Origin: a virus
Taxonomy: Duplodnaviria > Caudoviricetes
DNA length: 63,028 nucleotides
Strand: one strand, 5' to 3'
Virus record (IMG/VR): IMGVR_UViG_3300035188_000849
Location: 1-63,028 of that record
The notes beneath the pieces are model-generated. The model had not been told where the DNA came from. It did no database searches and saw nothing but the letters and a program-made list of their open reading frames with translations. A program made the position numbers and the translations under genes. Each line of letters opens with the position of its first letter. The first letter of the stretch is position 1. This document shows positions 3,261 to 15,806 of the stretch, one piece after another.

Positions 3261-3315
3261 CTATGGAGACTGAGATGATTTACTAATTATGGACTATACT
3301 TGTATTATATTATAA

Positions 3316-3441: not shown

Positions 3442-3466
3442 CCAGTAGCAATACTGGGGTTTTTTT
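3440..3466 (+). terminator. intrinsic terminator
   Basis: CCCCAGTA-GCAA-TACTGGGG followed by T7. Confidence 0.85.
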
Positions 3467-3483
3467 ATTTCTAAATATATTAT

Positions 3484-5160: not shown

Positions 5161-5161
5161 G

Positions 5162-5189
5162 TTGATTGGCTTGCGTTGAGCGTTATAAT
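5162..5189 (+). promoter_or_regulatory. sigma70-type promoter for tRNA-Lys/Glu
   Basis: TTGATT-N16-TATAAT. Confidence 0.6.
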
Positions 5190-5204
5190 TGGAGTCGTTA
5201 ATGC

Positions 5205-5278
5205 GCCTCCATAGCTCAGTCCGGTAGAGCAGTTGACTTTTAATCAATTGGTCCTAGGTTCGAATCCTAGTGGGGGCA
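5205..5278 (+). tRNA. tRNA-Lys (TTT)
   Basis: GCCTCCA/TGGGGGC acceptor, GTTGA-CTTTTAA-TCAAT, CTAGG-TTCGAAT-CCTAG. Confidence 0.95.
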
Positions 5279-5293
5279 CTTACAATTGAATAC

Positions 5294-5367
5294 GCGCTCA
5301 TAGATTAACTGGCTAAATCCCCGCCCTTTCAAGGCGGTGAGTCGGGGTTCGAGTCCCCGTGGGCGTA
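5294..5367 (+). tRNA. tRNA-Glu (TTC)
   Basis: GCGCTCA/TGGGCGT acceptor, CCGCC-CTTTCAA-GGCGG, CGGGG-TTCGAGT-CCCCG. Confidence 0.92.
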
Positions 5368-5369
5368 TT

Positions 5370-5540
5370 ATGAAGACATCTGAGATTCATGTTACTTTTG
5401 TCGATGATAACGAGAAAGATATTATCTTTTTTGTTTTGTGTTTCAAGGATGAAACTATCGTGAAGAAATTTGCTTTCAAGAACAGAGACAAGGCAGAAGA
5501 GACTGCACTTTCTTGGAACAATTCTGTTGACAATAACTAA
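5370..5540 (+). CDS. small hypothetical protein (MKTSEIHVTF...)
   Basis: ATG just after tRNA-Glu; the longer track ORF starts inside the tRNA. Confidence 0.5.
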   Translation: MKTSEIHVTFVDDNEKDIIFFVLCFKDETIVKKFAFKNRDKAEETALSWNNSVDNN

Positions 5541-5554
5541 AAAAAGTTTATAAT
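5527..5554 (+). promoter_or_regulatory. consensus sigma70-type promoter
   Basis: TTGACA-N16-TATAAT. Confidence 0.8.
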
Positions 5555-5564
5555 GTGTTTTGTA

Positions 5565-5617
5565 AAGAAGTGAGGGTTGATGAGACTTACTCCCACTTCT
5601 TGAGTGAACAAGTCTCA
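5565..5617 (+). promoter_or_regulatory. 5' leader able to form an H-type pseudoknot just upstream of the RBS
   Basis: S1 5565-5577/5589-5601 (12 of 13 pairs), S2 TGAGACTT 5581-5588/AAGTCTCA 5610-5617. Confidence 0.55.
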
Positions 5618-5635
5618 AAAAGGATTCTTTTTACT

Positions 5636-5905
5636 ATGGCTAATACTCTTAGCAAGACTCGCAAGGTCATCAACTATCTTGCAAACGGTAATTCAATTAC
5701 CGCTGCCGAGGCTCGCGCCCGCTTTGGCGTTCGCAACCTCCGCGCCACGATCAGCAACATTCGTGAACTGGTCGAGCGTTTTGGAAATTGGGAGATCGAC
5801 ACTGACGTTTCTCCCACGGGCAAGACCCGTTACACCATGGTCGACACTCATCCGGGTGATCGCGCCTATGGTTTCCGTGCAGACGGTACTCGTTACCTAC
5901 TCTGA
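5636..5905 (+). CDS. winged helix-turn-helix DNA-binding protein
   Basis: KVINYLANGNSITAAEARARFGVRNLRATISNIR; AAGGA RBS at 5620; start placed at MANTLS. Confidence 0.7.
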   Translation: MANTLSKTRKVINYLANGNSITAAEARARFGVRNLRATISNIRELVERFGNWEIDTDVSPTGKTRYTMVDTHPGDRAYGFRADGTRYLL

Positions 5906-5953
5906 AAAACTAAGACTGCCCTCCTAATCGATCCATAGTGATTACAGTCATTG

Positions 5954-5984
5954 GGGTGCTGCTAGAGGGAGCAGCACCCTTTTT
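5954..5984 (+). terminator. intrinsic terminator
   Basis: GGGTGCTGCT-AGAGGG-AGCAGCACCC then T5. Confidence 0.85.
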
Positions 5985-6014
5985 ATTTTGTCATAAATAT
6001 TTTGGAGGATTTAT

Positions 6015-6236
6015 ATGGAACCAAAGTATTTTTATGCTAAAGTAGAAATAGATGGACGTTGTGTTGATTTGCTATTGACTAACTCTGAAACTGTCAGAGC
6101 ATATAGTAGAGCAAAAGAAAATCCTTCTATGGTTAGTGATGTTCGTGGATATACAGAACTTTGCTGCGAAGTTCCTGTAGAAACTCGTAAGTGCAGCATT
6201 TGGGAAAAACTTTTAGGCAAATGTAATTGCCAATAA
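6015..6236 (+). CDS. hypothetical protein
   Basis: CATAAATA at 5992 and GGAGG RBS. Confidence 0.6.
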   Translation: MEPKYFYAKVEIDGRCVDLLLTNSETVRAYSRAKENPSMVSDVRGYTELCCEVPVETRKCSIWEKLLGKCNCQ

Positions 6237-6246
6237 TGGAGATAAT

Positions 6247-6588
6247 ATGTCATCGATTAAAATGGTTCGTTTGAGTTCTGGTGAAGAAATTATTTGTAAG
6301 TGGAGAGTTGATAAAGATGCAGATTCCAAGATTCATATTTTAAAGGATGCTGCAATTCTTTTCCCAATGGGACAAGGTAAGTTGGCATTTGCAAAGTGGA
6401 TGCCTTATGTTTCAGAAGAGCAACATAAGTATGGTATAACTGTTCCTGAGAAATTTGTGATGTTTGTTGTTGATATTGATGCTGAAATGGAAAAGCAATA
6501 CCAATCAATGATTAGTGGTCTTGTTGTTCCAAGCAATGGATCAGTAAGTGGTGGACCACTCGGAGCAGGATTGAAACTTACGACTTGA
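6247..6588 (+). CDS. conserved T4-like phage protein, probable Sm-like fold
   Basis: IKMVRLSSGEEIIC ... FAKWMPY pattern seen in T4-like phages; GGAG RBS. Confidence 0.6.
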   Translation: MSSIKMVRLSSGEEIICKWRVDKDADSKIHILKDAAILFPMGQGKLAFAKWMPYVSEEQHKYGITVPEKFVMFVVDIDAEMEKQYQSMISGLVVPSNGSVSGGPLGAGLKLTT

Positions 6589-6612
6589 CAGGAATCGAAC
6601 AACAGATATAAT
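6585..6612 (+). promoter_or_regulatory. consensus sigma70-type promoter for four-tRNA cluster
   Basis: TTGACA-N16-TATAAT. Confidence 0.85.
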
Positions 6613-6622
6613 TTTGTTGTCG

Positions 6623-6696
6623 GTTCCCGTAGCTCAGTTGGATAGAGCATTCGCCTTCTAAGCGAATGGTCAGTGGTTCGAATCCACTCGGGAACG
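6623..6696 (+). tRNA. tRNA-Arg (TCT)
   Basis: GTTCCCG/CGGGAAC, TTCGC-CTTCTAA-GCGAA. Confidence 0.95.
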
Positions 6697-6697
6697 T

Positions 6698-6770
6698 TCC
6701 TCTGTAGCTCAGTAGGTAGAGCGGGAAGCTGTTAACTTCCATGTCACTGGTTCGATTCCAGTCGGAGGAG
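6698..6770 (+). tRNA. tRNA-Asn (GTT)
   Basis: TCCTCTG/CGGAGGA, GGAAG-CTGTTAA-CTTCC. Confidence 0.95.
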
Positions 6771-6777
6771 TTTGAGC

Positions 6778-6849
6778 GCCACTTTAGCTCAACGGTAGAG
6801 CCTTGCTTTTGTAAAGCAGAGGTTGCGGGTTCGAATCCCACAGGTGGCT
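6778..6849 (+). tRNA. tRNA-Thr (TGT)
   Basis: GCCACTT/AGGTGGC, TTGCT-TTTGTAA-AGCAG. Confidence 0.9.
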
Positions 6850-6851
6850 TG

Positions 6852-6933
6852 GCGAGTATACTCAAGCGGTCAACGAGGTCTGACTGTAAATCAGATGGCA
6901 GCGCCTACGGGAGTTCGAATCTCTCTGCTCGCA
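6852..6933 (+). tRNA. tRNA-Tyr (GTA)
   Basis: GCGAGTA/TGCTCGC, TCTGA-CTGTAAA-TCAGA, long variable arm. Confidence 0.93.
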
Positions 6934-6949
6934 TTGTGTAGGAGGTTTT

Positions 6950-7069
6950 ATGGAAGGAAAACATGGAGCCGGAAAAGGCGATTCGTATAGACCAGTAAAT
7001 TATAAAAAATGGTCTGATAATTGGGACAAGATATTTAAAAAGAAATCTAAGAAGGAGAAAAAGAAATGA
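6950..7069 (+). CDS. small basic protein (39 aa, MEGKHGAGKGDSYRPVNYKKWSDNWDKIF...) not in ORF track
   Basis: Strong AGGAGG RBS; stop overlaps next ATG (ATGA). Confidence 0.7.
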   Translation: MEGKHGAGKGDSYRPVNYKKWSDNWDKIFKKKSKKEKKK

Positions 7070-7278
7070 ACTATAGACCAGGTGAAGGTTACGATAAAGG
7101 ATATACTTGCAGAATGAGTGGTGGATCTAAGCCAGTACAAGCGGCTACACCATCTGATGCATATTGGCAAGAATATTCCACAGGGTGGGAAGATGCCAAT
7201 GAAAAGATCATCAATGAAGCAAGAGCAAGAAATGGTATGCTGAATGAACACGGAAAACAGCAATTCTTGCAAGACTGA
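7066..7278 (+). CDS. ribosome modulation factor (RMF)-like protein
   Basis: G-Y-x-x-G-Y-x5-G ... Y-x-x-G-W-x-x-A spacing resembles RMF; AAGGAG RBS. Confidence 0.45.
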   Translation: MNYRPGEGYDKGYTCRMSGGSKPVQAATPSDAYWQEYSTGWEDANEKIINEARARNGMLNEHGKQQFLQD

Positions 7279-7293
7279 AGAATCTGTACTAAA

Positions 7294-7329
7294 AAATCAT
7301 CCTCTCTACCAAAATAGAGAGGATGATTT
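7294..7329. terminator. 15-bp perfect inverted repeat between convergent genes
   Basis: AAATCATCCTCTCTA-CCAAAA-TAGAGAGGATGATTT. Confidence 0.65.
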
Positions 7330-7372
7330 GCTTTATAGATTGATGAAAGAAAACGAAGAACTTAAGACTGAA

Positions 7373-9793
7373 TTAGAGTATTGGAGCAAAAATTGTTCCA
7401 ATTAAATGACCATTAGCCAAATATACATTTATATTATTTTGTTGCTTTGTACAATAAGCCAAAACATAAGTTGCTGGTATTTCTCTAGCAACTAAAGAAT
7501 TAATTGGGGATTTTTCTCTCCCTCGTGTCAAAAAATTATTTTGACCAGAACCAGATAATATGGGTTGGTCAAACAGATTCGATGGACCACTTTCTTTTTC
7601 AACTCTAAACGATAAAAATTCTCTAGAGTCAAATAAAACATTTCTATCTGCGCCACATGGTGAATTTGTACTAGATCCATTTGAATTGTCTTTGAGATCT
7701 GAGTATTCATTGCATGAAATTAAATTGATTGTATCAATTTTTGGAACAATTATTAAATATTGATTTTCATTTAAATTTTTTAATTCTGAGTTATCAATTA
7801 ACATAAAATTATTCATTAATTTTATAAAACTTAAATCATAATAATCGTTGCCACCAATATTGACATAATCATCTATTGTTCCTTCTGTCCTTCTGACTCC
7901 TCTTTGTTTAGAATGCAACATATACCAACCTTCATTTGTGTTAATCTCATAATTAACTACTCCATTTATAGTTCTGGAATTTAAAGACACCAAATCTTTA
8001 GAAATTGGTATAATTTTATTAACACGATAAAATCCGTTAAATAAATTATCTCTTTGTGATGTTCCCAGTATATCAATATTTGAAGATATTAAAAATTCTT
8101 TACTCAACCAATTTTTATTATACTCAATAAATAAACTTTGGTTTTTATAAAATTTTTCTTGTAATTCGTTTAGTTCAGATGCTTGAAGCATTCTTTTTTC
8201 TTTAAAATCTATTAAATTTGCATTTTGATATATTGAATTTGTAGATTCTCTAGAAAAGTAAGGATTGTTTTTAAGCGGGAAGTTAAATTCTGATTCTTGA
8301 GATAAATTTGGTAAATTTGCAGATTCTTCAATAAACAAAGGACCAAAACTATATGTGGCAATTTCTGGTTTTTGTATTGATCTCAGAAATGTATTTTGTC
8401 TATAAGTAATTGATCCAAATGACCCATCTCCAAAACCTATTAGTTCTAGAGGATCATTATCTGGATAGCCTGGAATTGATTCTTCGGGATGATATATATT
8501 AGGCAAACACCAAGTGTTTATATCTACAGTTTTAGTTTCATCGTTTAAATAAAATATATTTTCTGGATTACATCTATTTAAATCTGGAGTTCCAATATTT
8601 TTTCTAGCGGCCCCGTGTTTGTGATTGGAAAATCCAAGAAATAGAGTTTCTCCCTCATTTGATACAGTAAAAACTGATGCACCATCATCACCCTGTCCTC
8701 CGGTGTGTATCCAATCATTCATTACCCAATTGTCCTCAAACTGCGTTATGCCCCAAAACGTTCCAAATCCATAAGTTTCTGGTAAATTTCTGTCGGGTCT
8801 TCCAACATAAGAACCACTTGAATTTTTCTTAATTATTGCTTTTGTTACAGTTGCATTTTGACTGACACCATAAGTAGGAAAGTTTTCTTTGACTTTTCCA
8901 ACTAAAACTTTATATCTTTTTATTCTTTGGGGTATTGGTTCTTGTCCTTTTTTCATTCTGAATAAAGTAAAAGGCTCTTCATTTATTATTATTGTACCGA
9001 TGCCATAATTATCACATGTGTCTGGTGGATCAAGAATAACATCAAATGCTTTACAAGCACACTCAAATACTCTAGTAATAAATTCATTTATTTCTGGATC
9101 AAAGAATGAAGCCGTTGTATCAGCGCACGGTGGACCTACTGAGTGACCAATTCTATAAAGGTATTCCTCTCCACCATCTTCATATGAAGGTCCTGTATTT
9201 TCTAGCAATACTGCACCAGAAAGAAGAAACGACCCGTTGAACCATAAATTCATATCATTCCAATATTCTGCGCTTTCTATATCCGTTGGTTTTATTATTC
9301 TAGATGGATATCTTAGTCCGTCATCTGGTGCTTTTAATCCAAAATTTTCTAAACATTCTGGAACCGTACCCCCTGAATTTTCTACAGCAGTTCCGTATAA
9401 GTTACAACTCCAAAACGCTCCGCTGCATTGGCCAATTTGATCGCTTAATTTAGAATAGGAGTATTGAGCAGCACATCTAGGCCATGGTAAAGCTTGACAT
9501 ACATTATATCCTTCATAACATTCTGGTAAATCAAGATCATAACACGGTCTACAATAAACCGATCCACCATCTCCTAATCTTCTTATACCAAATATAACAC
9601 CACTAAAGTCTAATTGTAATGGTATTGTTTCTCCATCTACAGTTATTGTTTCAGAATTGGTAAATATATTTTCATTCAAAGATATTGGATATGCTGTTCT
9701 GTATTGTGGATAAACTTGTGGTGTTGTATTATAGTTAAATATACTAACTTTATTCAATACAGAAGGTGTGTTTAGTCTGTGAATCCATGTCAT
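7373..9793 (-). CDS. probable virion protein with C-terminal DUF4815-like module
   Basis: FKEKRMLQASELNELQ and PCGADR motifs shared with 34881..35615; start probably MTWIH (9793). Confidence 0.6.
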   Translation of the reverse strand: MTWIHRLNTPSVLNKVSIFNYNTTPQVYPQYRTAYPISLNENIFTNSETITVDGETIPLQLDFSGVIFGIRRLGDGGSVYCRPCYDLDLPECYEGYNVCQALPWPRCAAQYSYSKLSDQIGQCSGAFWSCNLYGTAVENSGGTVPECLENFGLKAPDDGLRYPSRIIKPTDIESAEYWNDMNLWFNGSFLLSGAVLLENTGPSYEDGGEEYLYRIGHSVGPPCADTTASFFDPEINEFITRVFECACKAFDVILDPPDTCDNYGIGTIIINEEPFTLFRMKKGQEPIPQRIKRYKVLVGKVKENFPTYGVSQNATVTKAIIKKNSSGSYVGRPDRNLPETYGFGTFWGITQFEDNWVMNDWIHTGGQGDDGASVFTVSNEGETLFLGFSNHKHGAARKNIGTPDLNRCNPENIFYLNDETKTVDINTWCLPNIYHPEESIPGYPDNDPLELIGFGDGSFGSITYRQNTFLRSIQKPEIATYSFGPLFIEESANLPNLSQESEFNFPLKNNPYFSRESTNSIYQNANLIDFKEKRMLQASELNELQEKFYKNQSLFIEYNKNWLSKEFLISSNIDILGTSQRDNLFNGFYRVNKIIPISKDLVSLNSRTINGVVNYEINTNEGWYMLHSKQRGVRRTEGTIDDYVNIGGNDYYDLSFIKLMNNFMLIDNSELKNLNENQYLIIVPKIDTINLISCNEYSDLKDNSNGSSTNSPCGADRNVLFDSREFLSFRVEKESGPSNLFDQPILSGSGQNNFLTRGREKSPINSLVAREIPATYVLAYCTKQQNNINVYLANGHLIGTIFAPIL

Positions 9794-9828
9794 AGTAAAA
9801 ATATGTATAAACATAAATACAAGTACAA

Positions 9829-9914
9829 GACGGGCTCGCGAACTACGCTGTTCGTGCGAAAAAGGAACTTCGCTACCTTTCGACCGTCAGGGGGGGATTC
9901 GGGTAATCCCCCCT
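9829..9914 (+). ncRNA. candidate small structured RNA plus terminator hairpin
   Basis: CATAAATA at 9812; closing stem GACGG/CCGTC; two internal hairpins; GGGGGGATT/AATCCCCCC hairpin. Confidence 0.5.
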
Positions 9915-9936
9915 ATCTTTTTCTACATATAGTAAC

Positions 9937-11301
9937 ATGGCAGAAGAAATAGCAAACATAAAAGTAATTCCAGTTGTTTATGAAAAAGGCACAACGGGTT
10001 CCTATGTCTTAGATTTGCGTGGGGAAAAGAAAATAATAAAATTTGGCGATAATGTTGAAAAAAATGATGATTGGGAATCAATTGTCTATTCTGAATTCAC
10101 TGGTTCTCCGAGAGTTGACATTGTTACAAATTTGGCAGATCCAACAATACCAAAATTATTTTTGGATGTAATCGTTCCAGAACTACAGGAAAATAGAATA
10201 GAAGCAGGTCTAGTTCTTTATGAAAATTGGGCAGATTTACCTTCAATCTATCCAGATCATCCTAATGGAATTTCTTTTAACTCGGCTTTGTTTAAAACTA
10301 ATTTACAAACAGAATTAGATAAATGGTCTGGTGTAACAAATTATCAAACATTCTTTAATAATTATCCTCATGATATTGAAGTAGGATATGAATCATATGT
10401 CTCTGGAAAAATAAACGGATATACTGGTGATGGTGTAGATATTCCTGGCATAACAGGGCCATTAGTTTTAAATGGTATTACTTTACTTAGTCTTACTTTG
10501 ACTGCTGCAAAGGAATTATCTCCTTCTTCTAGGGTTTATGAATACCACGCACCAGTTCTACCTTATAATTTTCCAAGTCCTGCTTTGGGGGCGGATTGGT
10601 ATCAAAGAAGCAATATTGGATATACAGAGAGTGATCAAGCATATGCAGATTTCAAGATAATGGCTCTGCAAAGATTTTCAGATAAAGTGAATCTTATAAA
10701 AGGAAGTTCGGATCTGATAAATCTTGAGGTTTATCCAAAACACTTTGCTGGATACACTTATCCGATGGGTGAATTTGAGTTTGGTTATCCAGATCAATTT
10801 GCGCTCAAAGCAAATGGAACAAAGGAATATACCTATGTTTCAATCAAGGGTGCATATGATAATATTCCAACTAGTAAAAGAGTACAGTTGCAAACCAGTC
10901 CGGTGATTTATAATGGATCTGGTTATTTAATATCTCAACTTACATCTGTTGCTGCTGTTCAGCAATTGGATGCCTTAATTTGGACTAATGAGTTTCTAGC
11001 AAATTACATTATAAAACCAGCAAAGGATGCCGGAGCCAGAAGTATGTTTATTTGGCATCCTTGGTATCAAGATACAATAATAGCCGGCAGACCATTAACT
11101 GGTATATGGAATTCTGACGGTGATAATTTAACACTAGTGACAAGAAAACTAATTAATGATTTATTTACTGACACTGGATATACAGGCACTATAGGGCTGA
11201 CAAATGATTCTGCATGGGCAGCACAAAGTACAAAAATATACGCATTGACGGCTGCCACAGAAAAGACAGTTTCTATGGCTGATCTTTTCAGACAACTTTA
11301 A
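9937..11301 (+). CDS. hypothetical protein (454 aa)
   Basis: Long ORF; composition like the virion proteins; no family recognised. Confidence 0.65.
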   Translation: MAEEIANIKVIPVVYEKGTTGSYVLDLRGEKKIIKFGDNVEKNDDWESIVYSEFTGSPRVDIVTNLADPTIPKLFLDVIVPELQENRIEAGLVLYENWADLPSIYPDHPNGISFNSALFKTNLQTELDKWSGVTNYQTFFNNYPHDIEVGYESYVSGKINGYTGDGVDIPGITGPLVLNGITLLSLTLTAAKELSPSSRVYEYHAPVLPYNFPSPALGADWYQRSNIGYTESDQAYADFKIMALQRFSDKVNLIKGSSDLINLEVYPKHFAGYTYPMGEFEFGYPDQFALKANGTKEYTYVSIKGAYDNIPTSKRVQLQTSPVIYNGSGYLISQLTSVAAVQQLDALIWTNEFLANYIIKPAKDAGARSMFIWHPWYQDTIIAGRPLTGIWNSDGDNLTLVTRKLINDLFTDTGYTGTIGLTNDSAWAAQSTKIYALTAATEKTVSMADLFRQL

Positions 11302-11303
11302 TA

Positions 11304-11331
11304 TTGATTTTTATCATTAGTTTGTTATAAT
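11304..11331 (+). promoter_or_regulatory. sigma70-type promoter with extended -10
   Basis: TTGATT-N16-TATAAT with TG ahead of -10. Confidence 0.7.
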
Positions 11332-11338
11332 TCGTGTC

Positions 11339-11716
11339 ATGCAAGTTTGTCGTGCTGAAGAATATCTTCAATTGGCATATCCAATGTGTCTTAGTATTCC
11401 TAGACAGAAGAAGCATGTCTCTTTGATCATTTGCAAAAAGAGAATTATTTCTGTTGGTATGAATTACTTCAAGACCCATCCAAAAGCAAAAGAGATTGGA
11501 TATCAATACGAGGAAATGCATTCTGAACTTGATGCCTTTCGCAAACTAGACAAGCAAGATAGGCAAAAAAAACTACATCTCATTAATGTCCGTTTCAATC
11601 GATTCGGTCAAATGAGAATGTCAAAGCCGTGTGAAAAATGTTTACCGTGGTGTATTGAAGTTTTTCACACAATTCACTATACTACTGATAACGGTGTTAT
11701 CCGTCTTAACTACTAA
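11339..11716 (+). CDS. cytidine/dCMP deaminase-superfamily Zn-dependent deaminase
   Basis: IISVGMN, HSE and KPCEKC zinc-binding motifs. Confidence 0.8.
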   Translation: MQVCRAEEYLQLAYPMCLSIPRQKKHVSLIICKKRIISVGMNYFKTHPKAKEIGYQYEEMHSELDAFRKLDKQDRQKKLHLINVRFNRFGQMRMSKPCEKCLPWCIEVFHTIHYTTDNGVIRLNY

Positions 11717-11727
11717 AAGGAGTAATT

Positions 11728-12030
11728 ATGATTTATCGTACTAGACTGTTTGGATCTGTTGAATCTTTTGTTTGCGCTCTTGTAACCGCTGGTCTTTTTG
11801 TTCACTTTTCTGGTGCAAATTTCGACAATGTTTTGGCTGTAGTTATGGCTATTGCTTCTGTTGGATTTGTTTATCTTGGTATTTCATCCTACAAGGATAA
11901 GAACGAAGATCTTCGTAGTGAACTTCGTGTTGAGCGTGAGTTCACCGCCCAAGAGGATACTAAGCGCGAACTGAATGATCGAATTGCTGGTCTTGAGCGT
12001 GAGTTCAATAATCTAGCAAACAAGAACTAA
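11728..12030 (+). CDS. two-TM membrane protein with C-terminal coiled coil
   Basis: Two hydrophobic stretches; AAGGAG RBS. Confidence 0.65.
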   Translation: MIYRTRLFGSVESFVCALVTAGLFVHFSGANFDNVLAVVMAIASVGFVYLGISSYKDKNEDLRSELRVEREFTAQEDTKRELNDRIAGLEREFNNLANKN

Positions 12031-12040
12031 TCTTGTTGTT

Positions 12041-12114
12041 GGCACGGTAGACCAATAGGCAGAGTCAATAGACTTAAAATCTGTGTAGTGTGGGTTCGAG
12101 TCCCACCCGTGCTA
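12041..12114 (+). tRNA. tRNA-Leu (TAA) with short variable loop
   Basis: GGCACGG/CCGTGCT, ATAGA-CTTAAAA-TCTGT, variable region GTAGT only. Confidence 0.9.
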
Positions 12115-12123
12115 TTTTAGGAG

Positions 12124-12357
12124 ATGCAAATGTTTCGACTTCATATTGATATTCCACTTTCAATGACAGAACAAGATTCAGTTTCTATTTCTCAGAAGAT
12201 TATCGACCTTCTAGAAAAAGAAAAGATGTTGACTTTTGGTGTGGAACAGGTAAATTATCGTTTGGGACACGACGAAGATCGTCAAAAGAGCAATTACTTG
12301 ATCAAGAATGAAAATGGTCATGTCTCAAACAAAAAGTGTCACATTTATTGGATGTGA
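12124..12357 (+). CDS. hypothetical protein
   Basis: AGGAG upstream; start may be the second Met (12130). Confidence 0.6.
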   Translation: MQMFRLHIDIPLSMTEQDSVSISQKIIDLLEKEKMLTFGVEQVNYRLGHDEDRQKSNYLIKNENGHVSNKKCHIYWM

Positions 12358-12363
12358 CTTCAT

Positions 12364-12436
12364 GGGATGTGGGGGTCTGGGAGGCCCAGCCTTGCTTATA
12401 ACGAGGTGGCAGTAGGTTCGAATCCTATACATCCTA
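12364..12436 (+). tRNA. tRNA-Ile (TAT), atypical D arm
   Basis: GGGATGT/ACATCCT, CCTTG-CTTATAA-CGAGG, GTAGG-TTCGAAT-CCTAT; G at position 8. Confidence 0.8.
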
Positions 12437-12439
12437 TTT

Positions 12440-12447
12440 TATAAATA
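12440..12447 (+). promoter_or_regulatory. T4-type late promoter
   Basis: Exact TATAAATA 17 nt before ATG 12465. Confidence 0.7.
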
Positions 12448-12464
12448 AGGTACGGAGAATTAAT

Positions 12465-12890
12465 ATGGCCAAATTTTCAGTACCAGCCGGTTGTAGAGAT
12501 GCGATGACAAACCTTCATAACGCCCACAATGAGCGTTATAACCGCATAAAAACAAAACTAACTCAAGCAAGAGTAGACGCAAAGGAAAGTGATCGTCTAA
12601 TCGGTGCATATATGGACACCCATAATGTTCTGCATGGCGCAGTCCAAAAAGCATTATCTGCAAAGGTAACAGAAATGCCCGACACAGTTAGAGACACACT
12701 ACATGCCGCTAGTGTTCATGCCGGTGATGTTCATTCGTCATTGACAAAAGGCCAAAGAGGCGCTGATATTGGAAGACAAACTGTTGCTGGAAAGCCAGTA
12801 GGATCTAAAATGGCTGGACAAAAAGTAGATCCACAGACACATCTACTAAAAGTAATTTCCGATATTAGAACTAGACACGGCAAACAGTAA
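12465..12890 (+). CDS. His/Ala-rich basic late protein
   Basis: Late promoter plus GGAGA RBS. Confidence 0.65.
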   Translation: MAKFSVPAGCRDAMTNLHNAHNERYNRIKTKLTQARVDAKESDRLIGAYMDTHNVLHGAVQKALSAKVTEMPDTVRDTLHAASVHAGDVHSSLTKGQRGADIGRQTVAGKPVGSKMAGQKVDPQTHLLKVISDIRTRHGKQ

Positions 12891-12907
12891 ACGTTATACT
12901 GTTTGAC

Positions 12908-13048
12908 ATGAAAAACAAAAACTACTTAGAAAAGGTGCTTATTAATTCATTTGCATTTCTTTTGGTGTCTTTTGGTATAACAATGATGATTCTTTCTTTT
13001 TCATTCATGTGTGACACCATTAAAAAGATTGAAATTTACACAAAATGA
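12908..13048 (+). CDS. small membrane protein (46 aa) not in ORF track
   Basis: MKNKNYLEKVLINSFAFLLVSFGITMMILSFSFMC...; ATGA overlap with next gene. Confidence 0.5.
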   Translation: MKNKNYLEKVLINSFAFLLVSFGITMMILSFSFMCDTIKKIEIYTK

Positions 13049-13227
13049 TAGACATTGAAATTCGATTAATGGAATTGGCCAATAAATGGCGATATGCAAA
13101 CCAAGAAGTATATGATGTTTGCAGAGATGCCGTTGAACAAATTCGTTTGTTGAGAGTCACTAACCCAAAGAAAACAATGCCATATGATCCCGGAACCAGT
13201 GGTTGGGGTAAGGGTAAAGATGAATAA
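13045..13227 (+). CDS. hypothetical protein
   Basis: ORF packing. Confidence 0.55.
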   Translation: MIDIEIRLMELANKWRYANQEVYDVCRDAVEQIRLLRVTNPKKTMPYDPGTSGWGKGKDE

Positions 13228-13390
13228 CGAGAAAAAATATTTTACCTACTACGATGCATTATTTGCAACCGCAATTTTGTGCATAACATTCTTTATGCAA
13301 CTCATAGTATTTGAACGTTTGGAAACTCGCGTTAAGGATCTTGAAATCAAAATTTCAGCATATGAATTCCGAAACTCGCAATTTGATTGA
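13220..13390 (+). CDS. small membrane protein (MNNEKKY...)
   Basis: One hydrophobic segment; overlaps neighbours. Confidence 0.5.
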   Translation: MNNEKKYFTYYDALFATAILCITFFMQLIVFERLETRVKDLEIKISAYEFRNSQFD

Positions 13391-13922
13391 TCACTACCAC
13401 TACTGGAACACAGATGCCATCATTGCTGATCTTGAGACTAAGCGGTTTAACTATAGTGTTTTGTGTTGCAATATTGGCAACGATTTTAATATCGCAACTG
13501 TGGTACGCAATGCGAATGCATTTTTGGCGAAGGAAGTAGTGATCTATGGCAATAAGAAATACGATAGACGGGGGACTGTCGGTACTCATCACTACACCAA
13601 ATTCCGTCATGTTAAAGGCATTGAAGATCTCGGCTCCTACATTGAAGAAACTATTTCCAAGTATGAAGGCAAAGTTAAATTATTGGGAATTGACAATGTA
13701 CCTGAAGCAAAAGATGTAAACACATTTGATTTTGATCCAAGTGTGCATTATATTATGATTTTTGGTCAGGAACAAATTGGAATTCCTGCCAATGTTTTGT
13801 CTATGTGTGATGATCTTCTTTACATTCCCCAGTACGGCTCTGTGAGAAGCATCAATGTTGGTACTGCCTCTGGTATTATAATGAACAATTATTGTGCCAA
13901 GGTTCACTCCTTCGTGGTGTAA
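13362..13922 (+). CDS. SpoU/TrmH-family (SPOUT) RNA 2'-O-methyltransferase
   Basis: NIGNDFNIATVVRNANAF, IFGQEQIGI, IPQYGSVRSINVGTASGI motifs; start placed at MNSETR. Confidence 0.9.
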   Translation: MNSETRNLIDHYHYWNTDAIIADLETKRFNYSVLCCNIGNDFNIATVVRNANAFLAKEVVIYGNKKYDRRGTVGTHHYTKFRHVKGIEDLGSYIEETISKYEGKVKLLGIDNVPEAKDVNTFDFDPSVHYIMIFGQEQIGIPANVLSMCDDLLYIPQYGSVRSINVGTASGIIMNNYCAKVHSFVV

Positions 13923-13978
13923 TGGTAGCACAAGAGGCTTTGAACCTCTTTGTCTAAGTTCGAATCTTAGCGAAGGAA
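13908..13978 (+). tRNA. tRNA-Gln (TTG)
   Basis: TCCTTCG/CGAAGGA, AGAGG-CTTTGAA-CCTCT, CTAAG-TTCGAAT-CTTAG. Confidence 0.93.
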
Positions 13979-13980
13979 TT

Positions 13981-14256
13981 ATGAAAGACACTTTTAAATC
14001 TCGTTATAATCAAAAGCGCACAATCACAGAACAAGGTGATGGTTCTTACTTGGTTGAGGGAGAGAGCCGGTATTATCGCTGTGGTGCTAATGAAGGAGAG
14101 GATAGCATTTGGATGGTAGACTTTGAAGGTGGTCCATTTATTGCTGTTGGCGATCCTTTGCTTGGTTCCAAGAAAGAATATGGAACAGTAACTAGAATCG
14201 AAATTCTTAAAGAACAAAAAGAAGGTAGTTTTGCCGTAAAAGTATTTTGTGAATAA
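13981..14256 (+). CDS. hypothetical protein (MKDTFKSRY...)
   Basis: ATG directly after tRNA-Gln. Confidence 0.6.
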   Translation: MKDTFKSRYNQKRTITEQGDGSYLVEGESRYYRCGANEGEDSIWMVDFEGGPFIAVGDPLLGSKKEYGTVTRIEILKEQKEGSFAVKVFCE

Positions 14257-14264
14257 ATACTTGT

Positions 14265-14645
14265 ATGGCTGATCAATTTTCTTTCAATATCGATCCATCA
14301 TTACTAGAAGGTGATTTTGGCTTTAGCACAGTAAACCAAGAAGAACTTGGTAGTTTGCTTTCTCCTAGTCTGACTGAGCCAGAAGAAATATCTGCTATTA
14401 AGTCAAAACTAGATTTGATTTTAGAGATGAATTCCACATGCGAAGGTGCAATGGCTGTAAAGTCTCAATATGACGAATTGCTCAAAGCCAGAATGACCGA
14501 AATCGAAAAAGTAATACTACCTCTTCTCGCTAGTCTTAAAAAGAACAAAGCAAAAGATTATATCTTTTGGCCAGGCGCACAGAGAGAAGCCCAGTGTGAT
14601 CTTCAAATTCAAAAACTTTTATCCTTGACTCGCGCAAAACTTTGA
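14265..14645 (+). CDS. conserved T4-like phage hypothetical protein
   Basis: DFGFS and PLLASLKKNKAKDYIFWP motifs; AATAAATA at 14252. Confidence 0.7.
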   Translation: MADQFSFNIDPSLLEGDFGFSTVNQEELGSLLSPSLTEPEEISAIKSKLDLILEMNSTCEGAMAVKSQYDELLKARMTEIEKVILPLLASLKKNKAKDYIFWPGAQREAQCDLQIQKLLSLTRAKL

Positions 14646-14653
14646 ATTATAAT
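14625..14653 (+). promoter_or_regulatory. sigma70-type promoter for tRNA-Gly
   Basis: TTGACT-N17-TATAAT. Confidence 0.75.
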
Positions 14654-14661
14654 TCAGTTGT

Positions 14662-14733
14662 GCGGGTGTAACTCAGTGGTAGAGTGTTGGTTTTCCAAAC
14701 CAATTGTCGAGGGTTCGATCCCCTTCTCCCGCT
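14662..14733 (+). tRNA. tRNA-Gly (TCC)
   Basis: GCGGGTG/CTCCCGC, TTGGT-TTTCCAA-ACCAA, GAGGG-TTCGATC-CCCTT. Confidence 0.92.
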
Positions 14734-14739
14734 TACTAT

Positions 14740-14820
14740 GCGTAGTTCAGTGTGTGATGCTGACTAGGATCATTGGTTGCAAACAGTGATTGAGTATGGG
14801 TGCAGGCCCCACGCTACGCT
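14740..14820 (+). tRNA. non-canonical tRNA-like element, Cys-type (GCA anticodon, U discriminator)
   Basis: GCGTAGT/GCTACGC acceptor; TCAGT/GCTGA stem; GATCATTG/CAGTGATT stem with TTGCAAA loop; TGGG-TGCAGGC-CCCA arm. Confidence 0.55.
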
Positions 14821-14822
14821 TT

Positions 14823-15170
14823 ATGAATACATTATTTGTTGAAAATAGAACTGAAGAGTGGCAAAAATATAATAGTTATTGTGGTACTAATAAATGGTTT
14901 GCTGGCTGGGCTATTAATTATAATGCCGCTACAAATGGTTTAGGTTATCAAAATTATGATTATGTTGTAATTGGAGACACACTCGGAGATGGTGAATCCC
15001 CGGTGTCTTTTGTGAAATACATTATCGATAATCGTATAAAAATTGGTACAATATTATTGTTCATAGAAAATAGTCATTTAAGGCAGACTATTGAAGATGA
15101 ATTTCTTAAAAACTTTTATTCAGTAAAAATTTTTACCAATTCTTGGGAAGAAACTTTTGCTAATAAATAA
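14823..15170 (+). CDS. receiver-like domain protein (degenerate)
   Basis: MNTLFVEN ... YDYVVIGDTLGDG resembles the LFLDD ... LDHDLG pattern of cyclic-phosphate-processing receiver domains. Confidence 0.45.
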   Translation: MNTLFVENRTEEWQKYNSYCGTNKWFAGWAINYNAATNGLGYQNYDYVVIGDTLGDGESPVSFVKYIIDNRIKIGTILLFIENSHLRQTIEDEFLKNFYSVKIFTNSWEETFANK

Positions 15171-15172
15171 CT

Positions 15173-15435
15173 TTGGTATTGTTGATCTCGGATAGAAACA
15201 CGAACAGCACTGGGGTTCGAATCCCCACGACTCCATTAGCCTAACCGAAGGATTCTGCAATTCCTTAGAGATGGCGAGACAAGTCCTCGTAGCAGCGGGG
15301 CACAATTAGGGGTCGAAAGGAATCGACTGGCGTAGAGTATTGAAGAAGGAGATACCCGACACGGGTAACAAGTGTCGTAAATAAACAGTTGCAACAACAA
15401 AAGCCGCACCAATGCGGATGGCTGCTTAAAGCAGT
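15173..15435 (+). ncRNA. ssrA: circularly permuted (two-piece) tmRNA; tag ATTKAAPMRMAA
   Basis: T arm and 3' acceptor strand (TGGGG-TTCGAAT-CCCCA-CGACTCC-A, 15211-15235) precede the 5' strand GGGGTCG (15309); G3:U70 pair; pk1-like pairing; tag frame 15391-15429 ends Ala-Ala-stop. Outer ends approximate. Confidence 0.9.
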
Positions 15436-15442
15436 GGGGTTT

Positions 15443-15477
15443 CCCGGTTTTCCCGCGACTGAAAAACCGGGTTTTTT
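15443..15477 (+). terminator. intrinsic terminator after tmRNA
   Basis: CCCGGTTTT/AAAACCGGG then T6. Confidence 0.8.
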
Positions 15478-15478
15478 A

Positions 15479-15506
15479 TTGAATGCCAATTTAGTTTTAG
15501 TATAAT
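15479..15506 (+). promoter_or_regulatory. sigma70-type promoter
   Basis: TTGAAT-N16-TATAAT; ATG 6 nt after -10 implies a leaderless mRNA. Confidence 0.6.
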
Positions 15507-15512
15507 ACAATT

Positions 15513-15806
15513 ATGCCAAAACGAGTATGGGATAACATTGACGAAGAAGCAGTTTCTCAAGGTAATGCATTTCGTCGGCAACTCACTCAGATTGCCAAAC
15601 GAGCAATGGGTAAGCAAATTATCAAACAACGCAAAATGCACCTAGACGGTGTTTATGTCGTTCAACGCAAACTTGTGGGTGTGAAATTCCTGCCGCTAGG
15701 ATTGAAGCACTACCATATACCACTAAATGTGTCAAGTGTTCTGATGCCAAGCCATATGTTGGCTTCATGGATTGGTATCATAAGACAGCACCCGAACTTG
15801 TTATGA
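15513..15806 (+). CDS. basic hypothetical protein; C-terminal half may be an out-of-frame artefact
   Basis: From about 15670 the -1 frame encodes a recognisable zinc finger. Confidence 0.45.
   Translation: MPKRVWDNIDEEAVSQGNAFRRQLTQIAKRAMGKQIIKQRKMHLDGVYVVQRKLVGVKFLPLGLKHYHIPLNVSSVLMPSHMLASWIGIIRQHPNLL

What the first reader, a model, noticed from the sequence alone, without database searches (positions are those of the whole stretch)
15173..15477. Phage-encoded circularly permuted, minimised two-piece tmRNA
Seen: the 3' half of the tRNA-like domain (T arm plus CGACTCC-A, 15211-15235) lies upstream of the 5' half (GGGGTCGAAAGGAATCGAC, from 15309). The strands form a 7-bp acceptor stem with the G3:U70 alanine determinant. 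A pk1-like knot (TACC/GGTA; CGACAC/GTGTCG) and A-rich linker precede a tag frame GCA...GCT GCT TAA (ATTKAAPMRMAA), then a terminator. Known: permuted ssrA occurs in alphaproteobacteria, some marine cyanobacteria and a few betaproteobacteria; tags ending in AA are ClpXP degrons. Inference: the two pieces total only about 190 nt, leaving no room for pk2-pk4, and AATAAATA at 15162 suggests late-promoter expression. This may be an independent phage permutation supplying ribosome rescue during infection. No smpB is present in the window.
Basis: partly seen in the sequence, partly recalled or inferred. Interest (0 to 1): 0.9.

Follow-up and report, generated by a model that had tools for sequence, protein, structure and literature searches.

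The report
Phage two-piece tmRNA gene
A large T4-like phage from lake water carries a real, circularly permuted (two-piece) ribosome-rescue RNA gene, but such phage genes are already known and this one is of ordinary size, so it is a new member of a known kind.

Summary
Window 15175-15478(+) is a circularly permuted tmRNA (ssrA) gene. Rfam RF04321 matches end to end at 60.8 bits (gathering score 47). I collected 60 unique relatives from IMG/VR viral contigs. Across them, 99.5% of base-pair cells pair, against 38-48.5% in slid controls. 21 of 38 pairs show compensatory double changes, and G3:U70 is kept in 60/60.

- Phage-encoded two-piece tmRNAs are already published (PMC9004378).
- The RNA is not minimised. 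Its pieces are 61 + 163 nt, against 62 + 179 (BUCT-ZZ01) and 64 + 171 (Melnitz).
- A second pseudoknot follows the tag.
- An independent permutation is unsupported. The best lineage model is beta-type, below threshold.
- The tag frame and stop are right, but the resume codon is more likely GCC 15403 (AAPMRMAA) than GCA 15391.

Features specific to this family:
- No encoded CCA, as in all 11 phage tRNAs of the window.
- An intervening segment of about 5 to 173 nt across the family (73 nt here).
- No chromosomal bacterial counterpart found.

No smpB was found. Processing, charging and tagging are untested.

The parts
15162..15169 (+). AATAAATA, a T4-late-promoter-like motif. It overlaps the stop codon (15168-15170) of ORF 14790-15170 and ends 5 nt before the first base of the element.
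   Evidence: Sequence. NATAAATA lies 13-38 nt upstream of ORF starts at 12465, 14265, 33161, 52873 and 57405. The exact motif sits 5-6 nt before G1 in 7 of 54 unique upstream contexts of the family. PMC9004378 gives 5'-TATAAAT-3' as the known T4-like late-promoter core (passage); the window's motif differs at the first base. Function is inferred.
15175..15235 (+). Acceptor piece (61 nt; 64 once CCA is added). It holds the P2 5'-side strands (15175-15179, 15199-15202, 15205-15207), the T arm (15211-15227), the acceptor 3' strand (15228-15234) and discriminator A15235. CCA is not encoded; TTA follows.
   Evidence: RF04321 alignment. RNAalifold and pair counts on 60 relatives: T arm 4/5 pairs covary, acceptor 4/7, P2a/b 7/7, P2 distal 2/5. 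The 5' end at 15175 is the model boundary and the family-conserved start, not a mapped RNA end.
15236..15308 (+). Intervening segment (73 nt), expected to be excised by tRNA-processing enzymes. It contains hairpins that are conserved in relatives.
   Evidence: The segment ranges from about 5 nt to about 173 nt across the family. Its internal helices are 80.4% paired against 35-51% in slid controls. Excision itself is inferred.
15309..15477 (+). Coding piece. In order: acceptor 5' strand GGGGTCG (15309-15315), D-loop-like AAAGGAATCGA, P2 3'-side strands (15327-15329, 15331-15334, 15352-15356), pk1, leader, tag, stop hairpin, second pseudoknot/terminator, U run.
   Evidence: The 3' end is inferred from the hairpin plus T6.
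15357..15377 (+). pk1 stem 2: CGACAC (15357-15362) pairs with GTGTCG (15372-15377).
   Evidence: Stem 2: 3 of 6 pairs change on both sides. Stem 1: 100% paired, but 2 pairs vary on one side only (wobble) and none on both. Its 3' strand was fixed by the retrieval pattern.
15391..15429 (+). Tag region. Likely true resume codon GCC at 15403-15405. Stop TAA at 15427-15429. Encoded tag AAPMRMAA, or ATTKAAPMRMAA if resumed at GCA. Internal hairpin 15404-15408 / 15413-15417. The stop lies in the loop of hairpin 15421-15425 / 15431-15435.
   Evidence: ARAGORN at the 80% threshold and the RF04321 alignment give the GCA frame. All 60/60 relatives have an Ala codon 8 codons before the stop, and the stretch between GCA and that codon is 12 nt (32) or 13 nt (28). 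The stop hairpin is 100% paired.
15437..15477 (+). Second pseudoknot, which doubles as the intrinsic terminator. Stem 1: GGG 15437-15439 with CCC 15452-15454. Stem 2: CCCGGTTTT 15443-15451 with AAAACCGGG 15463-15471. Then T6 at 15472-15477.
   Evidence: Stem 1 is invariant in 60/60. Stem 2 is complementary in all 60 under a positional constraint, with about 7 different sequence variants. Relatives with a short stem 2 carry a separate terminator hairpin. The terminator scan does not list it because the loop is 11 nt.
15479..15506 (+). Sigma-70-like promoter (TTGAAT-16-TATAAT) of the next gene (ORF 15513-15806). It marks the end of the tmRNA transcription unit.
   Evidence: 10 of 12 matches. Similar hexamers appear at the same place in relative L091 (by eye).
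14625..14653 (+). Sigma-70-like promoter (TTGACT-17-TATAAT) ahead of tRNA-Gly (14662-14733). It could drive early co-transcription of tRNA-Gly, ORF 14790-15170 and the tmRNA.
   Evidence: 11 of 12 matches. Co-transcription is inferred.

Best explanation
Window 15175-15477(+) is a functional, phage-encoded, circularly permuted tmRNA (ssrA) gene. It belongs to a divergent family carried by T4-like phages of lake water.

Proposed mechanism (shown = by sequence or comparison here; inferred = from established tmRNA and tRNA biology):
1. Transcription starts at the late-type motif AATAAATA (15162-15169) and/or by read-through from the sigma-70-like promoter at 14625. It ends at the hairpin plus U run at 15443-15477 (inferred).
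2. Host tRNA-processing enzymes cut 5' of G15309 (RNase P) and trim after A15235, removing the 73-nt intervening segment. A CCA-adding enzyme supplies the unencoded CCA, as it must for all 11 phage tRNAs in the window. (Gene layout and absence of CCA shown; processing inferred.)
3. The 61-nt acceptor piece and the roughly 165-nt coding piece stay together through the 7-bp acceptor stem and the three-part P2 helix (pairing shown by covariation).
4. Alanyl-tRNA synthetase charges it through G3:U70 and discriminator A (identity elements shown, invariant in 60/60; charging inferred).
5. With host SmpB (no phage smpB found) it enters stalled ribosomes. Translation resumes most likely at GCC 15403 (about 2:1 over GCA 15391). 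It adds (A)AAPMRMAA and stops at TAA 15427. The product is marked by its C-terminal Ala-Ala for host proteases (inferred).

Benefit to the phage (inferred, as also proposed for phage Melnitz): ribosomes stay free while messages are being degraded during infection.
For: - Model match: RF04321 matches full length at 60.8 bits against gathering 47.
- Relatives via gp32: 7 of 50 related viral records scanned carry the same element at 70.7-98.2 bits. All 7 are among the 16 with gp32 identity of 82% or more.
- Relatives via motif: an invariant motif retrieves 76 IMG/VR contigs, giving 60 unique full-length copies.
- Structure: on these 60, RNAalifold finds the tRNA-like domain, P2, pk1 stem 2 and the stop hairpin unaided. 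47 pairs are predicted, 21 with double changes.
- Controlled count: 99.5% of 2280 cells pair, against 38.0-48.5% when the partner is slid. 21 of 38 pairs have double changes, reached by 0/500 shuffles. G3:U70 is 60/60.
- Tag: a tag of exactly 8 codons from an Ala codon to a stop, ending in AA, is present in 60/60.
- Intervening segment: it varies from about 5 to 173 nt while both flanks stay conserved, as expected of an excised spacer.
- Context: the gene sits beside a tRNA cluster of 11 tRNAs at 3178-14733, all on the + strand. In 17 of 54 unique contexts a tRNA-Tyr ends 2-11 nt upstream.
- Known relatives: named related phages carry two-piece tmRNAs with similar piece sizes and gene order.
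- Habitat: 14 lake or freshwater metagenome runs from 14 studies hold 0.61-0.89 of the stretch's sampled words.
Against: - ARAGORN misses the window's copy at default and 90% thresholds, and 19 of the 60 family members at default.
- Lineage-specific Rfam models are all below threshold for the window. Beta scores 23.5 against 84; alpha and cyano scored lower and were dropped by clan competition.
- Folding energy alone is not significant (z -0.62; 28 of 100 shuffles fold as well).
- CCA is not encoded, whereas the RF04321 consensus, BUCT-ZZ01 and Melnitz all have CCACCA.
- No smpB was found in the window or in 5 relatives rated 58-76% complete. No CCA-adding enzyme was found in 5 records. All of these records are fragments.
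- There is no RNA evidence of cleavage. Contigs from four RNA libraries cover parts of the element, the intervening segment included, and show no joint. Contigs cannot show RNA ends, and DNA can be present in such libraries.
- The family was gathered with a motif spanning the pk1 3' side and the leader, so invariance in that stretch is by construction.
- The sequences are related, so cell counts overstate the number of independent events.
Confidence: 0.85

Rival explanations
1. The gene is a real permuted tmRNA, but it arose by a separate (fourth) permutation event inside a phage lineage rather than by descent from a bacterial two-piece lineage.
For: - No lineage-specific Rfam model reaches its threshold.
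- For relatives L092/L093 the best partial lineage hit is cyano rather than beta, so assignment is unstable.
- The family motif is absent from one genome each of 185,579 bacterial and archaeal species.
- A looser motif found the element only on L174, a 9.5-kb, tRNA-packed scaffold of a MAG.
- The sequence of the 3' pseudoknot differs from the CTGAG...AAACAGAA stretch that I read by eye in both BUCT-ZZ01 and Melnitz.
Against: - Beta_tmRNA is the best lineage model for the window and 5 of 7 relatives, with significant E-values (2e-05 down to 1e-16).
- Scores form a gradient up to BUCT-ZZ01 (94.5 bits, above threshold), which has the best-ranked gp6 match among named phages.
- Gene order, P2 layout, pk1 position, the stop-codon hairpin and the single 3' pseudoknot match BUCT-ZZ01 as I read it.
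- The resume context ATAATT|GCT AAC GAA, present in 22/60, mirrors Melnitz's ATAATT|GCA AAC GAC. That argues for common descent of the coding piece.
- A permuted gene must have this order whatever its origin, so layout alone cannot show independence.
Confidence: 0.12
2. It is a tRNA-like decoy that binds SmpB or AlaRS and blocks the host's own trans-translation. On this view it does not tag proteins itself, like the tRNA-like-domain-only tmRNA of mycobacteriophage DS6A.
For: - PMC4131195 and PMC11915505 (passages) report that a DS6A-like molecule inhibits tmRNA when expressed in E. coli.
- No phage smpB was found, so the RNA must compete for host SmpB.
- The start of the tag is ambiguous.
Against: - The full mRNA-like part is kept. 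pk1 stem 2 covaries, and an 8-codon Ala-to-stop frame ending in AA is present in 60/60.
- The stop sits in a conserved hairpin, followed by a conserved pseudoknot.
- A decoy would not need any of these.
Confidence: 0.04
3. It is a decaying relic of a captured host ssrA gene with no present function.
For: The window's copy scores lowest in the family (60.8 bits against 70.7-98.2 for the seven first relatives). ARAGORN misses it.
Against: - All identity and pairing elements are intact in the window.
- Five other unique members encode the same 12-codon frame, ATTKAAPMRMAA.
- Compensatory changes across 60 unique copies show selection on structure.
- There are no disruptions of the acceptor stem, T arm or stop codon.
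Confidence: 0.03

Closest known systems
Permuted (two-piece) tmRNA, Rfam RF04321, built from alphaproteobacterial, betaproteobacterial and cyanobacterial seeds (PMC11915505, passages)
   Same: - Gene order: acceptor piece, intervening segment, coding piece.
- T arm, 7-bp acceptor stem with G3:U70 and discriminator A.
- A P2 helix that joins the two pieces, and a pk1 hairpin before the tag.
- A tag ending in Ala-Ala plus a stop.
- The score is above the curated threshold.
   Different: - CCA is not encoded; the model consensus has CCACCA.
- The score is modest (60.8 bits).
- The carrier is a virus, not a cell.
Phage-encoded two-piece tmRNAs: Methylophilales phage Melnitz (alpha-type, with a glutamine riboswitch) and Synechococcus phage BUCT-ZZ01 (beta-type)
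   Same: - Carried by T4-like myoviruses of aquatic hosts, near tRNA genes.
- Similar piece sizes: 61+163 nt here, 62+179 nt in BUCT-ZZ01, 64+171 nt in Melnitz.
- A stop-codon hairpin and one pseudoknot after the tag, as I read them.
- The resume context resembles Melnitz's.
   Different: - They reach lineage-model thresholds (alpha 106.7 against 50; beta 94.5 against 84), and the window does not.
- They encode CCA.
- Melnitz has a glutamine riboswitch just downstream (52.8 bits), and the window has none.
- Tags are ANDNYVPVDYALAA and ANDETFSMALAA, against AAPMRMAA or ATTKAAPMRMAA here.
- gp6 is only 28.6-30.2% identical.
Betaproteobacterial two-piece tmRNA, Rfam RF01850
   Same: It is the best-scoring lineage-specific model for the window and for 5 of 7 relatives. 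It aligns P2, the tRNA-like domain, the pk1 hairpin, the tag and the first 3' hairpin.
   Different: - 23.5 bits against a threshold of 84.
- The model's 5' leader and its last 3' hairpin have no counterpart in the window.
One-piece phage tmRNAs (mycobacteriophages of the Bxz1 group, Bacillus phage G) and the tRNA-like-domain-only form of phage DS6A (PMC4131195, passages)
   Same: A phage-borne ssrA without an accompanying smpB in the stretch examined.
   Different: Those are unpermuted, or lack a tag frame altogether. The window's gene is permuted and keeps a tag frame.

Membership tests
Permuted two-piece tmRNA (Rfam RF04321) | Covariance-model score at or above the curated gathering score (47 bits), over the full model | tested here: met
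   60.8 bits, model positions 1-213 of 213, at 15175-15429(+).
Permuted two-piece tmRNA (Rfam RF04321) | The 3' half of the tRNA-like domain is encoded upstream of the 5' half, separated by an intervening segment | tested here: met
   T arm and acceptor 3' strand at 15211-15235; acceptor 5' strand at 15309-15315; 73 nt between them. Same order in 60 relatives, with segments of about 5-173 nt.
Permuted two-piece tmRNA (Rfam RF04321) | A 7-bp acceptor stem with the alanine identity pair G3:U70 and discriminator A | tested here: met
   GGGGTCG/CGACTCC plus A15235. G:U in 60/60; 4 of 7 pairs change on both sides; 99.8% of cells paired.
Permuted two-piece tmRNA (Rfam RF04321) | A T arm with a tRNA-type T loop | tested here: met
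   TGGGG-TTCGAAT-CCCCA at 15211-15227. 4 of 5 pairs covary and 100% are paired.
Permuted two-piece tmRNA (Rfam RF04321) | A long P2 helix formed between the two pieces | tested here: met
   Three segments totalling 12 pairs. 9 have double changes, and 97.4-100% of cells are paired.
Permuted two-piece tmRNA (Rfam RF04321) | Pseudoknot pk1 upstream of the resume codon | tested here: inconclusive
   Stem 2 is supported (3 of 6 pairs covary). Stem 1 (TACC/GGTA) remains pairable but shows wobble changes only. It also overlaps the P2 distal helix, which has 2 double changes.
Permuted two-piece tmRNA (Rfam RF04321) | A short tag reading frame that starts at an Ala-type resume codon and ends in Ala-Ala plus a stop | tested here: met
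   GCC 15403 (or GCA 15391) to TAA 15427-15429. An 8-codon Ala...AA frame is present in 60/60.
Permuted two-piece tmRNA (Rfam RF04321) | The precursor is cleaved into two RNAs that stay base-paired | not testable with these tools
   Only assembled contigs of RNA libraries were on hand. They show no joint and cannot show RNA ends.
Permuted two-piece tmRNA (Rfam RF04321) | Alanylation, SmpB binding and trans-translation activity | not testable with these tools
   These need biochemistry or genetics. No smpB in the window or in 5 large relatives.
Betaproteobacterial two-piece tmRNA (Rfam RF01850) | Score at or above the gathering score (84 bits) | tested here: not met
   23.5 bits for the window and 30.3-61.5 bits for five relatives. 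It is the closest lineage model, but membership is not shown.
Alphaproteobacterial (RF01849) and cyanobacterial (RF01851) two-piece tmRNA | Score at or above the gathering scores (50 and 70 bits) | tested here: not met
   Not listed for the window. Lower-scoring clan members were dropped below beta's 23.5 bits. Cyano reaches only 35 bits, and only in part, in L092/L093.
Standard one-piece tmRNA (RF00023) | An unpermuted gene with the 5' half first, and a score of 47 bits or more | tested here: not met
   No RF00023 row for the window at E up to 10. The gene order is permuted.

The most novel reading that the evidence does not exclude
This may be a virus-only fourth lineage of two-piece tmRNA. 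It would have evolved within lake-water T4-like phages apart from the alpha, beta and cyano cellular lineages, either by its own permutation event or by long separate descent.

Its distinguishing traits would be:
- No encoded CCA.
- An intervening segment that can shrink to 5 nt or grow to about 170 nt.
- A structured, covarying RNA module inside many of those segments, which may have a function of its own.
Probability: 0.15. Interest if true: 0.6.

Novelty: new member of a known kind. Interest (0 to 1): 0.35.

Why it matters
Phage-borne ribosome-rescue RNAs show that large phages bring parts of the translation quality-control system with them. This result adds a widespread freshwater family: at least 76 viral contigs in IMG/VR.

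- Detection. ARAGORN, the tool used in the two phage surveys I read, misses 19 of the 60 unique members. The older lineage-specific Rfam models miss all those tested. Counts of phage tmRNAs from such surveys are therefore probably too low.
- Processing. The family offers natural variation that is useful for studying two-piece tmRNA processing. Intervening segments run from 5 to about 170 nt, and CCA is never encoded.
- Resume-codon choice. A 12- or 13-nt leader lies before a fixed 8-codon tag.

It does not change what is known about how tmRNA works.

Tried and rejected
- ARAGORN. The tool and my own runs at default, -ps and -ps90 found no tmRNA in the window. At -ps80 it reported a permuted tmRNA with misplaced tRNA-domain coordinates but the same GCA-frame tag. 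I used it only as a weak cross-check.
- blastn against 50,697 GenBank phage records. Neither the 351-nt element (distant mode) nor 15 kb around it (near mode) matched.
- A long exact pattern for the tRNA-like core found nothing in viral contigs. The downstream ORF 15513-15806 has no confirmed relatives there. Both flanking ORFs have no Pfam or PHROG family.
- gp32 loci. Only 50 of the 80 loci (L011-L060) were scanned with RF04321. L061-L090 were not scanned.
- Folding energy of the window's copy alone is not significant. I rejected it as evidence either way.
- The terminator scan does not list the terminal hairpin. I read it by eye.
- First stem finder and frame index. The frame was off by one and the short stems were spurious. 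Redone.
- I first read 28/60 members as using a +1 frame from CAA. I rejected this in favour of a downstream resume codon.
- RNA libraries. No joint was seen and there is no information on RNA ends. 15100-15204 and 15484-15560 had no cover. None of this says anything about processing or about transcription limits.
- Bacterial genomes. The first motif gave 0 hits. The second gave 4, of which only L174 holds a tmRNA. The other three are taken as chance.
- The MAG label of L174 is not used as host evidence.
- Papers and other tools. Supplementary tables were closed. Table S1 of PMC9004378 and the supplements of PMC11915505 (its 79 phage tmRNAs) may already list members of this family, and I could not check. 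That no paper describes this particular family rests only on searches and the passages read.
Full report
WHAT IS THERE. The window is a whole IMG/VR viral contig of 63,028 bases, rated about 27% complete by CheckV. It has 35% G+C. It encodes T4-type structural and replication proteins: a gp6-like baseplate wedge, a gp32-like single-strand DNA-binding protein, large terminase, tail sheath and portal. Its gp6 is only 25-30% identical to gp6 of cyanomyoviruses and of Methylophilales phage Melnitz. Eleven tRNA genes lie at 3178-14733, all on the + strand.

Directly after ORF 14790-15170, the stretch 15175-15429(+) matches Rfam RF04321 (tmRNA_permuted) over the whole model. It scores 60.8 bits against a gathering score of 47. 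These are the T arm at 15211-15227, CGACTCC plus A at 15228-15235, GGGGTCG at 15309-15315 with G3:U70, and the CGACAC/GTGTCG hairpin. Also present are the frame ending GCT GCT TAA at 15429, a terminal hairpin with a T run, and AATAAATA at 15162-15169.

IS IT MORE THAN CHANCE? On the single sequence the evidence is mixed.
- The covariance model passes.
- ARAGORN finds nothing at default or 90% thresholds.
- The folding energy is not better than shuffles: z -0.62, with 28 of 100 shuffles folding as well.

The decisive evidence is comparative. The gp32-like protein retrieved 80 related viral loci. I scanned the full records behind 50 of them. Seven carry the same element at 70.7-98.2 bits, and all seven are among the 16 closest by gp32. 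A motif that is invariant in these then retrieved 76 viral contigs, which gave 60 unique full-length copies.

RNAalifold, given no guidance, predicted the T arm, the acceptor stem, three P2 segments, pk1 stem 2, the stop-codon hairpin and a GGG/CCC helix. It predicted 47 pairs, 21 of them with double changes.

For my explicit 38-pair structure:
- 99.5% of 2280 cells pair, against 38.0-48.5% when the partners are slid by 1-3 columns.
- 21 pairs show changes on both sides, a count reached by 0 of 500 shuffles.
- G3:U70 is kept in 60 of 60.

Two caveats apply. The sequences are related, so cells are not independent events. The retrieval motif fixes the 3' side of pk1 and the leader, so invariance there means nothing.

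(a) Size. The acceptor piece is 61 nt (64 with CCA). The intervening segment is 73 nt. The coding piece is 163 nt to the end of the last stem, plus a U run. The two named phage two-piece tmRNAs that I dissected the same way measure 62 + 179 nt (Synechococcus phage BUCT-ZZ01) and 64 + 171 nt (Melnitz). The element is therefore not minimised, and 'about 190 nt' is an undercount.

(b) Pseudoknots. After the stop-codon hairpin (15421-15425 / 15431-15435) there is a second pseudoknot.
- Stem 1: GGG 15437-15439 pairs with CCC 15452-15454. It is invariant in 60/60.
- Stem 2: CCCGGTTTT 15443-15451 pairs with AAAACCGGG 15463-15471. In the window this stem is also the terminator stem.
- In relatives stem 2 takes about seven different complementary forms. 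Those with a short stem 2 have a separate terminator downstream.
- BUCT-ZZ01 shows a pseudoknot of the same topology after its tag. For Melnitz the script confirmed stem 2 only, and I read stem 1 by eye.

(c) pk1. Stem 2 has three covarying pairs. It also shares its 5' strand with the distal P2 helix GGTAT/ATACC, which has two genuine double changes. Both cannot form at once, so I leave stem 1 open.

(d) Tag.
- In 28 of 60 relatives one extra base follows the first GCA. The GCA frame then gives 5 residues (19 members), 22 residues (4 members) or no stop within the sequence examined (5 members).
- All 60 have an Ala codon exactly eight codons before the stop.
- The stretch from the first GCA to that codon is 12 nt in 32 members and 13 nt in 28.
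- In 22 of 60 the hexamer before that codon is ATAATT, followed by GCT AAC GAA. Melnitz's resume site reads ATAATT, then GCA AAC GAC.
- The simplest reading is that the downstream Ala codon is the resume codon and the variable stretch is untranslated leader.
- In the window this is GCC 15403, giving AAPMRMAA. I put this at about 2:1 over GCA 15391 (ATTKAAPMRMAA).

(e) CCA. After discriminator A15235 comes TTA. Every family member that I parsed reads TTA or TTC at that place. None of the window's 11 tRNA genes encodes CCA either. BUCT-ZZ01, Melnitz and the Rfam consensus all encode CCACCA.

(f) Intervening segment. It ranges from 5-6 nt (for example L118, where five bases separate the discriminator from G1) to about 173 nt. 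That fits an excised spacer.

EXPRESSION SIGNALS.
- AATAAATA ends 5 nt before the first base of the element.
- The same NATAAATA motif lies 13-38 nt upstream of several ORFs, including the tail sheath gene at 57405 and the head-tail adaptor gene at 52873.
- Across 54 unique upstream contexts, 7 have the exact motif 5-6 nt before G1, the window among them. In none of the 7 does ARAGORN find an adjacent tRNA.
- In 17 contexts a tRNA-Tyr ends 2-11 nt upstream, and 30 have other contexts.
- The late-promoter idea is therefore plausible for a minority. Co-transcription with tRNAs looks common elsewhere.
- The motif is not enriched overall. There are 11 on the + strand and 4 on the - strand. From base composition alone I estimate about 24 per strand (my own arithmetic, not a tool result).
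- A strong sigma-70-like promoter at 14625-14653 precedes tRNA-Gly. Another at 15479-15506 follows the element.

PARTNERS. No SmpB gene (PF01668) was found in the window or in five relatives rated 58-76% complete. No CCA-adding enzyme (PF01743) was found in five records. All are fragments, so absence from the full genomes is not shown. The working assumption is that host SmpB, RNase P, 3'-end trimming enzymes, the CCA-adding enzyme, AlaRS and proteases are used.

LINEAGE.
- Melnitz is alpha-type: RF01849 at 106.7 bits against 50, with a glutamine riboswitch just downstream.
- BUCT-ZZ01 is beta-type: RF01850 at 94.5 bits against 84.
- For the window and five of seven relatives, beta_tmRNA is the best lineage model. 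Scores are 23.5-61.5 bits, all under 84. For L092/L093 only partial cyano and standard-model hits were listed.
- The exact family motif is absent from one genome each of 185,579 prokaryotic species.
- A looser motif hit four contigs. Only L174 carries the element. It is a 9.5-kb scaffold with 16 tRNA hits in the 8 kb held, binned into a MAG, and it looks like a phage fragment.
- My reading is a divergent, phage-carried offshoot nearest the beta type. An independent permutation is not excluded but has no positive support.

HABITAT AND RNA.
- Fourteen lake or freshwater metagenome runs from 14 studies hold 0.61-0.89 of the stretch's sampled words. One of them may be the window's own source.
- Six RNA libraries hold small shares. 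I laid four of them.
- Their contigs come from relatives, at 90-99% likeness. They cover 15205-15303, 15309-15397, 15378-15439 and 15418-15480.
- Some run from a relative's intervening segment into the coding piece. No joint was seen.
- Contigs cannot show RNA ends, and DNA can be present in such libraries. Nothing follows about processing.

WHAT IS KNOWN.
- A 2014 survey listed only one-piece tmRNAs, plus one tRNA-like-domain-only form, in phages (PMC4131195, passages).
- A 2020 paper reported tmRNAs and SmpB in huge phages, found with ARAGORN (PMC7162821, passages).
- A 2022 paper described the two-piece tmRNA of Melnitz. It counted 53 unique two-piece forms among 133 unique phage tmRNAs, 50 of them from marine or aquatic samples. 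It too used ARAGORN (PMC9004378, passages).
- The 2025 database paper built RF04321 and lists 79 bacteriophage tmRNAs (PMC11915505, passages).
- ARAGORN at default finds 41 of the 60 unique family members, but not the window's copy.
- The kind is known and the current Rfam model detects this gene. The particular family seems undescribed in what I could search.

VERDICT. This is a real permuted tmRNA gene (confidence 0.85 that it is functional as such). It is a new member of a known kind, with modest family-level novelties: no encoded CCA, a very variable intervening segment, and no cellular counterpart found. It is not minimised, and it is not shown to be an independent permutation. Interest: 0.35.

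Noticed in passing
window 15239-15301 (inside the intervening segment): The intervening segment is not random spacer. A closing helix GCC/GGC, a hairpin with a conserved TCTGCAA-type loop, and a second hairpin CCTCG-TAGCAG-CGGGG recur in the relatives that carry this type of segment. 80.4% of cells pair, against 35-51% in slid controls, and 10 of 16 pairs have double changes. Members with a 5-nt segment lack it, so the tmRNA does not need it. Its role is unknown.
   Followed up: partly
L118:4912-5173(-) and 11 similar unique copies (rows 2-13 of alignment A1): In one sub-family only 5-6 bases (for example TTCAC) separate the discriminator A from G1. In the precursor the acceptor stem is therefore capped by a tiny loop. 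That makes it an extreme case for RNase P and 3'-end processing.
   Followed up: partly
window 15386-15392 and 15455-15461: CAGTTGC, which includes the first two bases of the first GCA, is complementary to GCGACTG in the loop of the 3' pseudoknot. RNAalifold and the single-sequence fold both pair them. The 3' strand was not part of the retrieval motif. It is conserved in 60/60 apart from two positions, one of which switches U-A to U-G. If real, this helix closes the tag loop and argues against GCA 15391 as the resume codon.
   Followed up: partly
alignment A1 column 327; window 15391-15402: The leader before the 8-codon tag is 12 nt in 32 unique copies and 13 nt in 28. ARAGORN and the Rfam alignment pick different tag starts in different members. 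Automatic tag annotation in this family will be inconsistent.
   Followed up: yes
L096:1853-1934(-), and the same stretch upstream of the tmRNA in L098, L100, L108 and others: In many relatives an 82-83-nt tRNA-like gene ends 3-4 nt before the tmRNA. Rfam's tRNA model scores it at 55.6-55.9 bits. It has an unusual T-loop region (GGGTGCAGGYCCCTC). ARAGORN did not call it in the 130-nt contexts I gave it.
   Followed up: no
window 3178-14733: None of the 11 tRNA genes encodes CCA. One is called tRNA-Ile with anticodon TAT (12363-12437) and has the lowest Rfam score, 34.3 bits.
   Followed up: no
L174 (9.5-kb scaffold of a MAG whose record title says Bacteroidota): The 8 kb held carries 16 tRNA hits and a family-type permuted tmRNA (77.5 bits). 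It looks like a phage tRNA-array fragment binned into a bacterial MAG. That is weak as a host hint, and it is a possible source of false 'bacterial' tmRNA records.
   Followed up: partly
window 3484-5160(+): A 558-aa protein with a C-terminal DnaJ (J) domain (Pfam PF00226, 49.5 bits). This is a phage-encoded co-chaperone-like gene inside the tRNA region.
   Followed up: no
L008 (Synechococcus phage BUCT-ZZ01, record positions 116952-117248, - strand): This cultured freshwater cyanophage carries a beta-type permuted tmRNA. RF01850 scores 94.5 bits, above its gathering score, and RF04321 scores 111.9 bits. I did not check whether its GenBank record annotates the gene.
   Followed up: no
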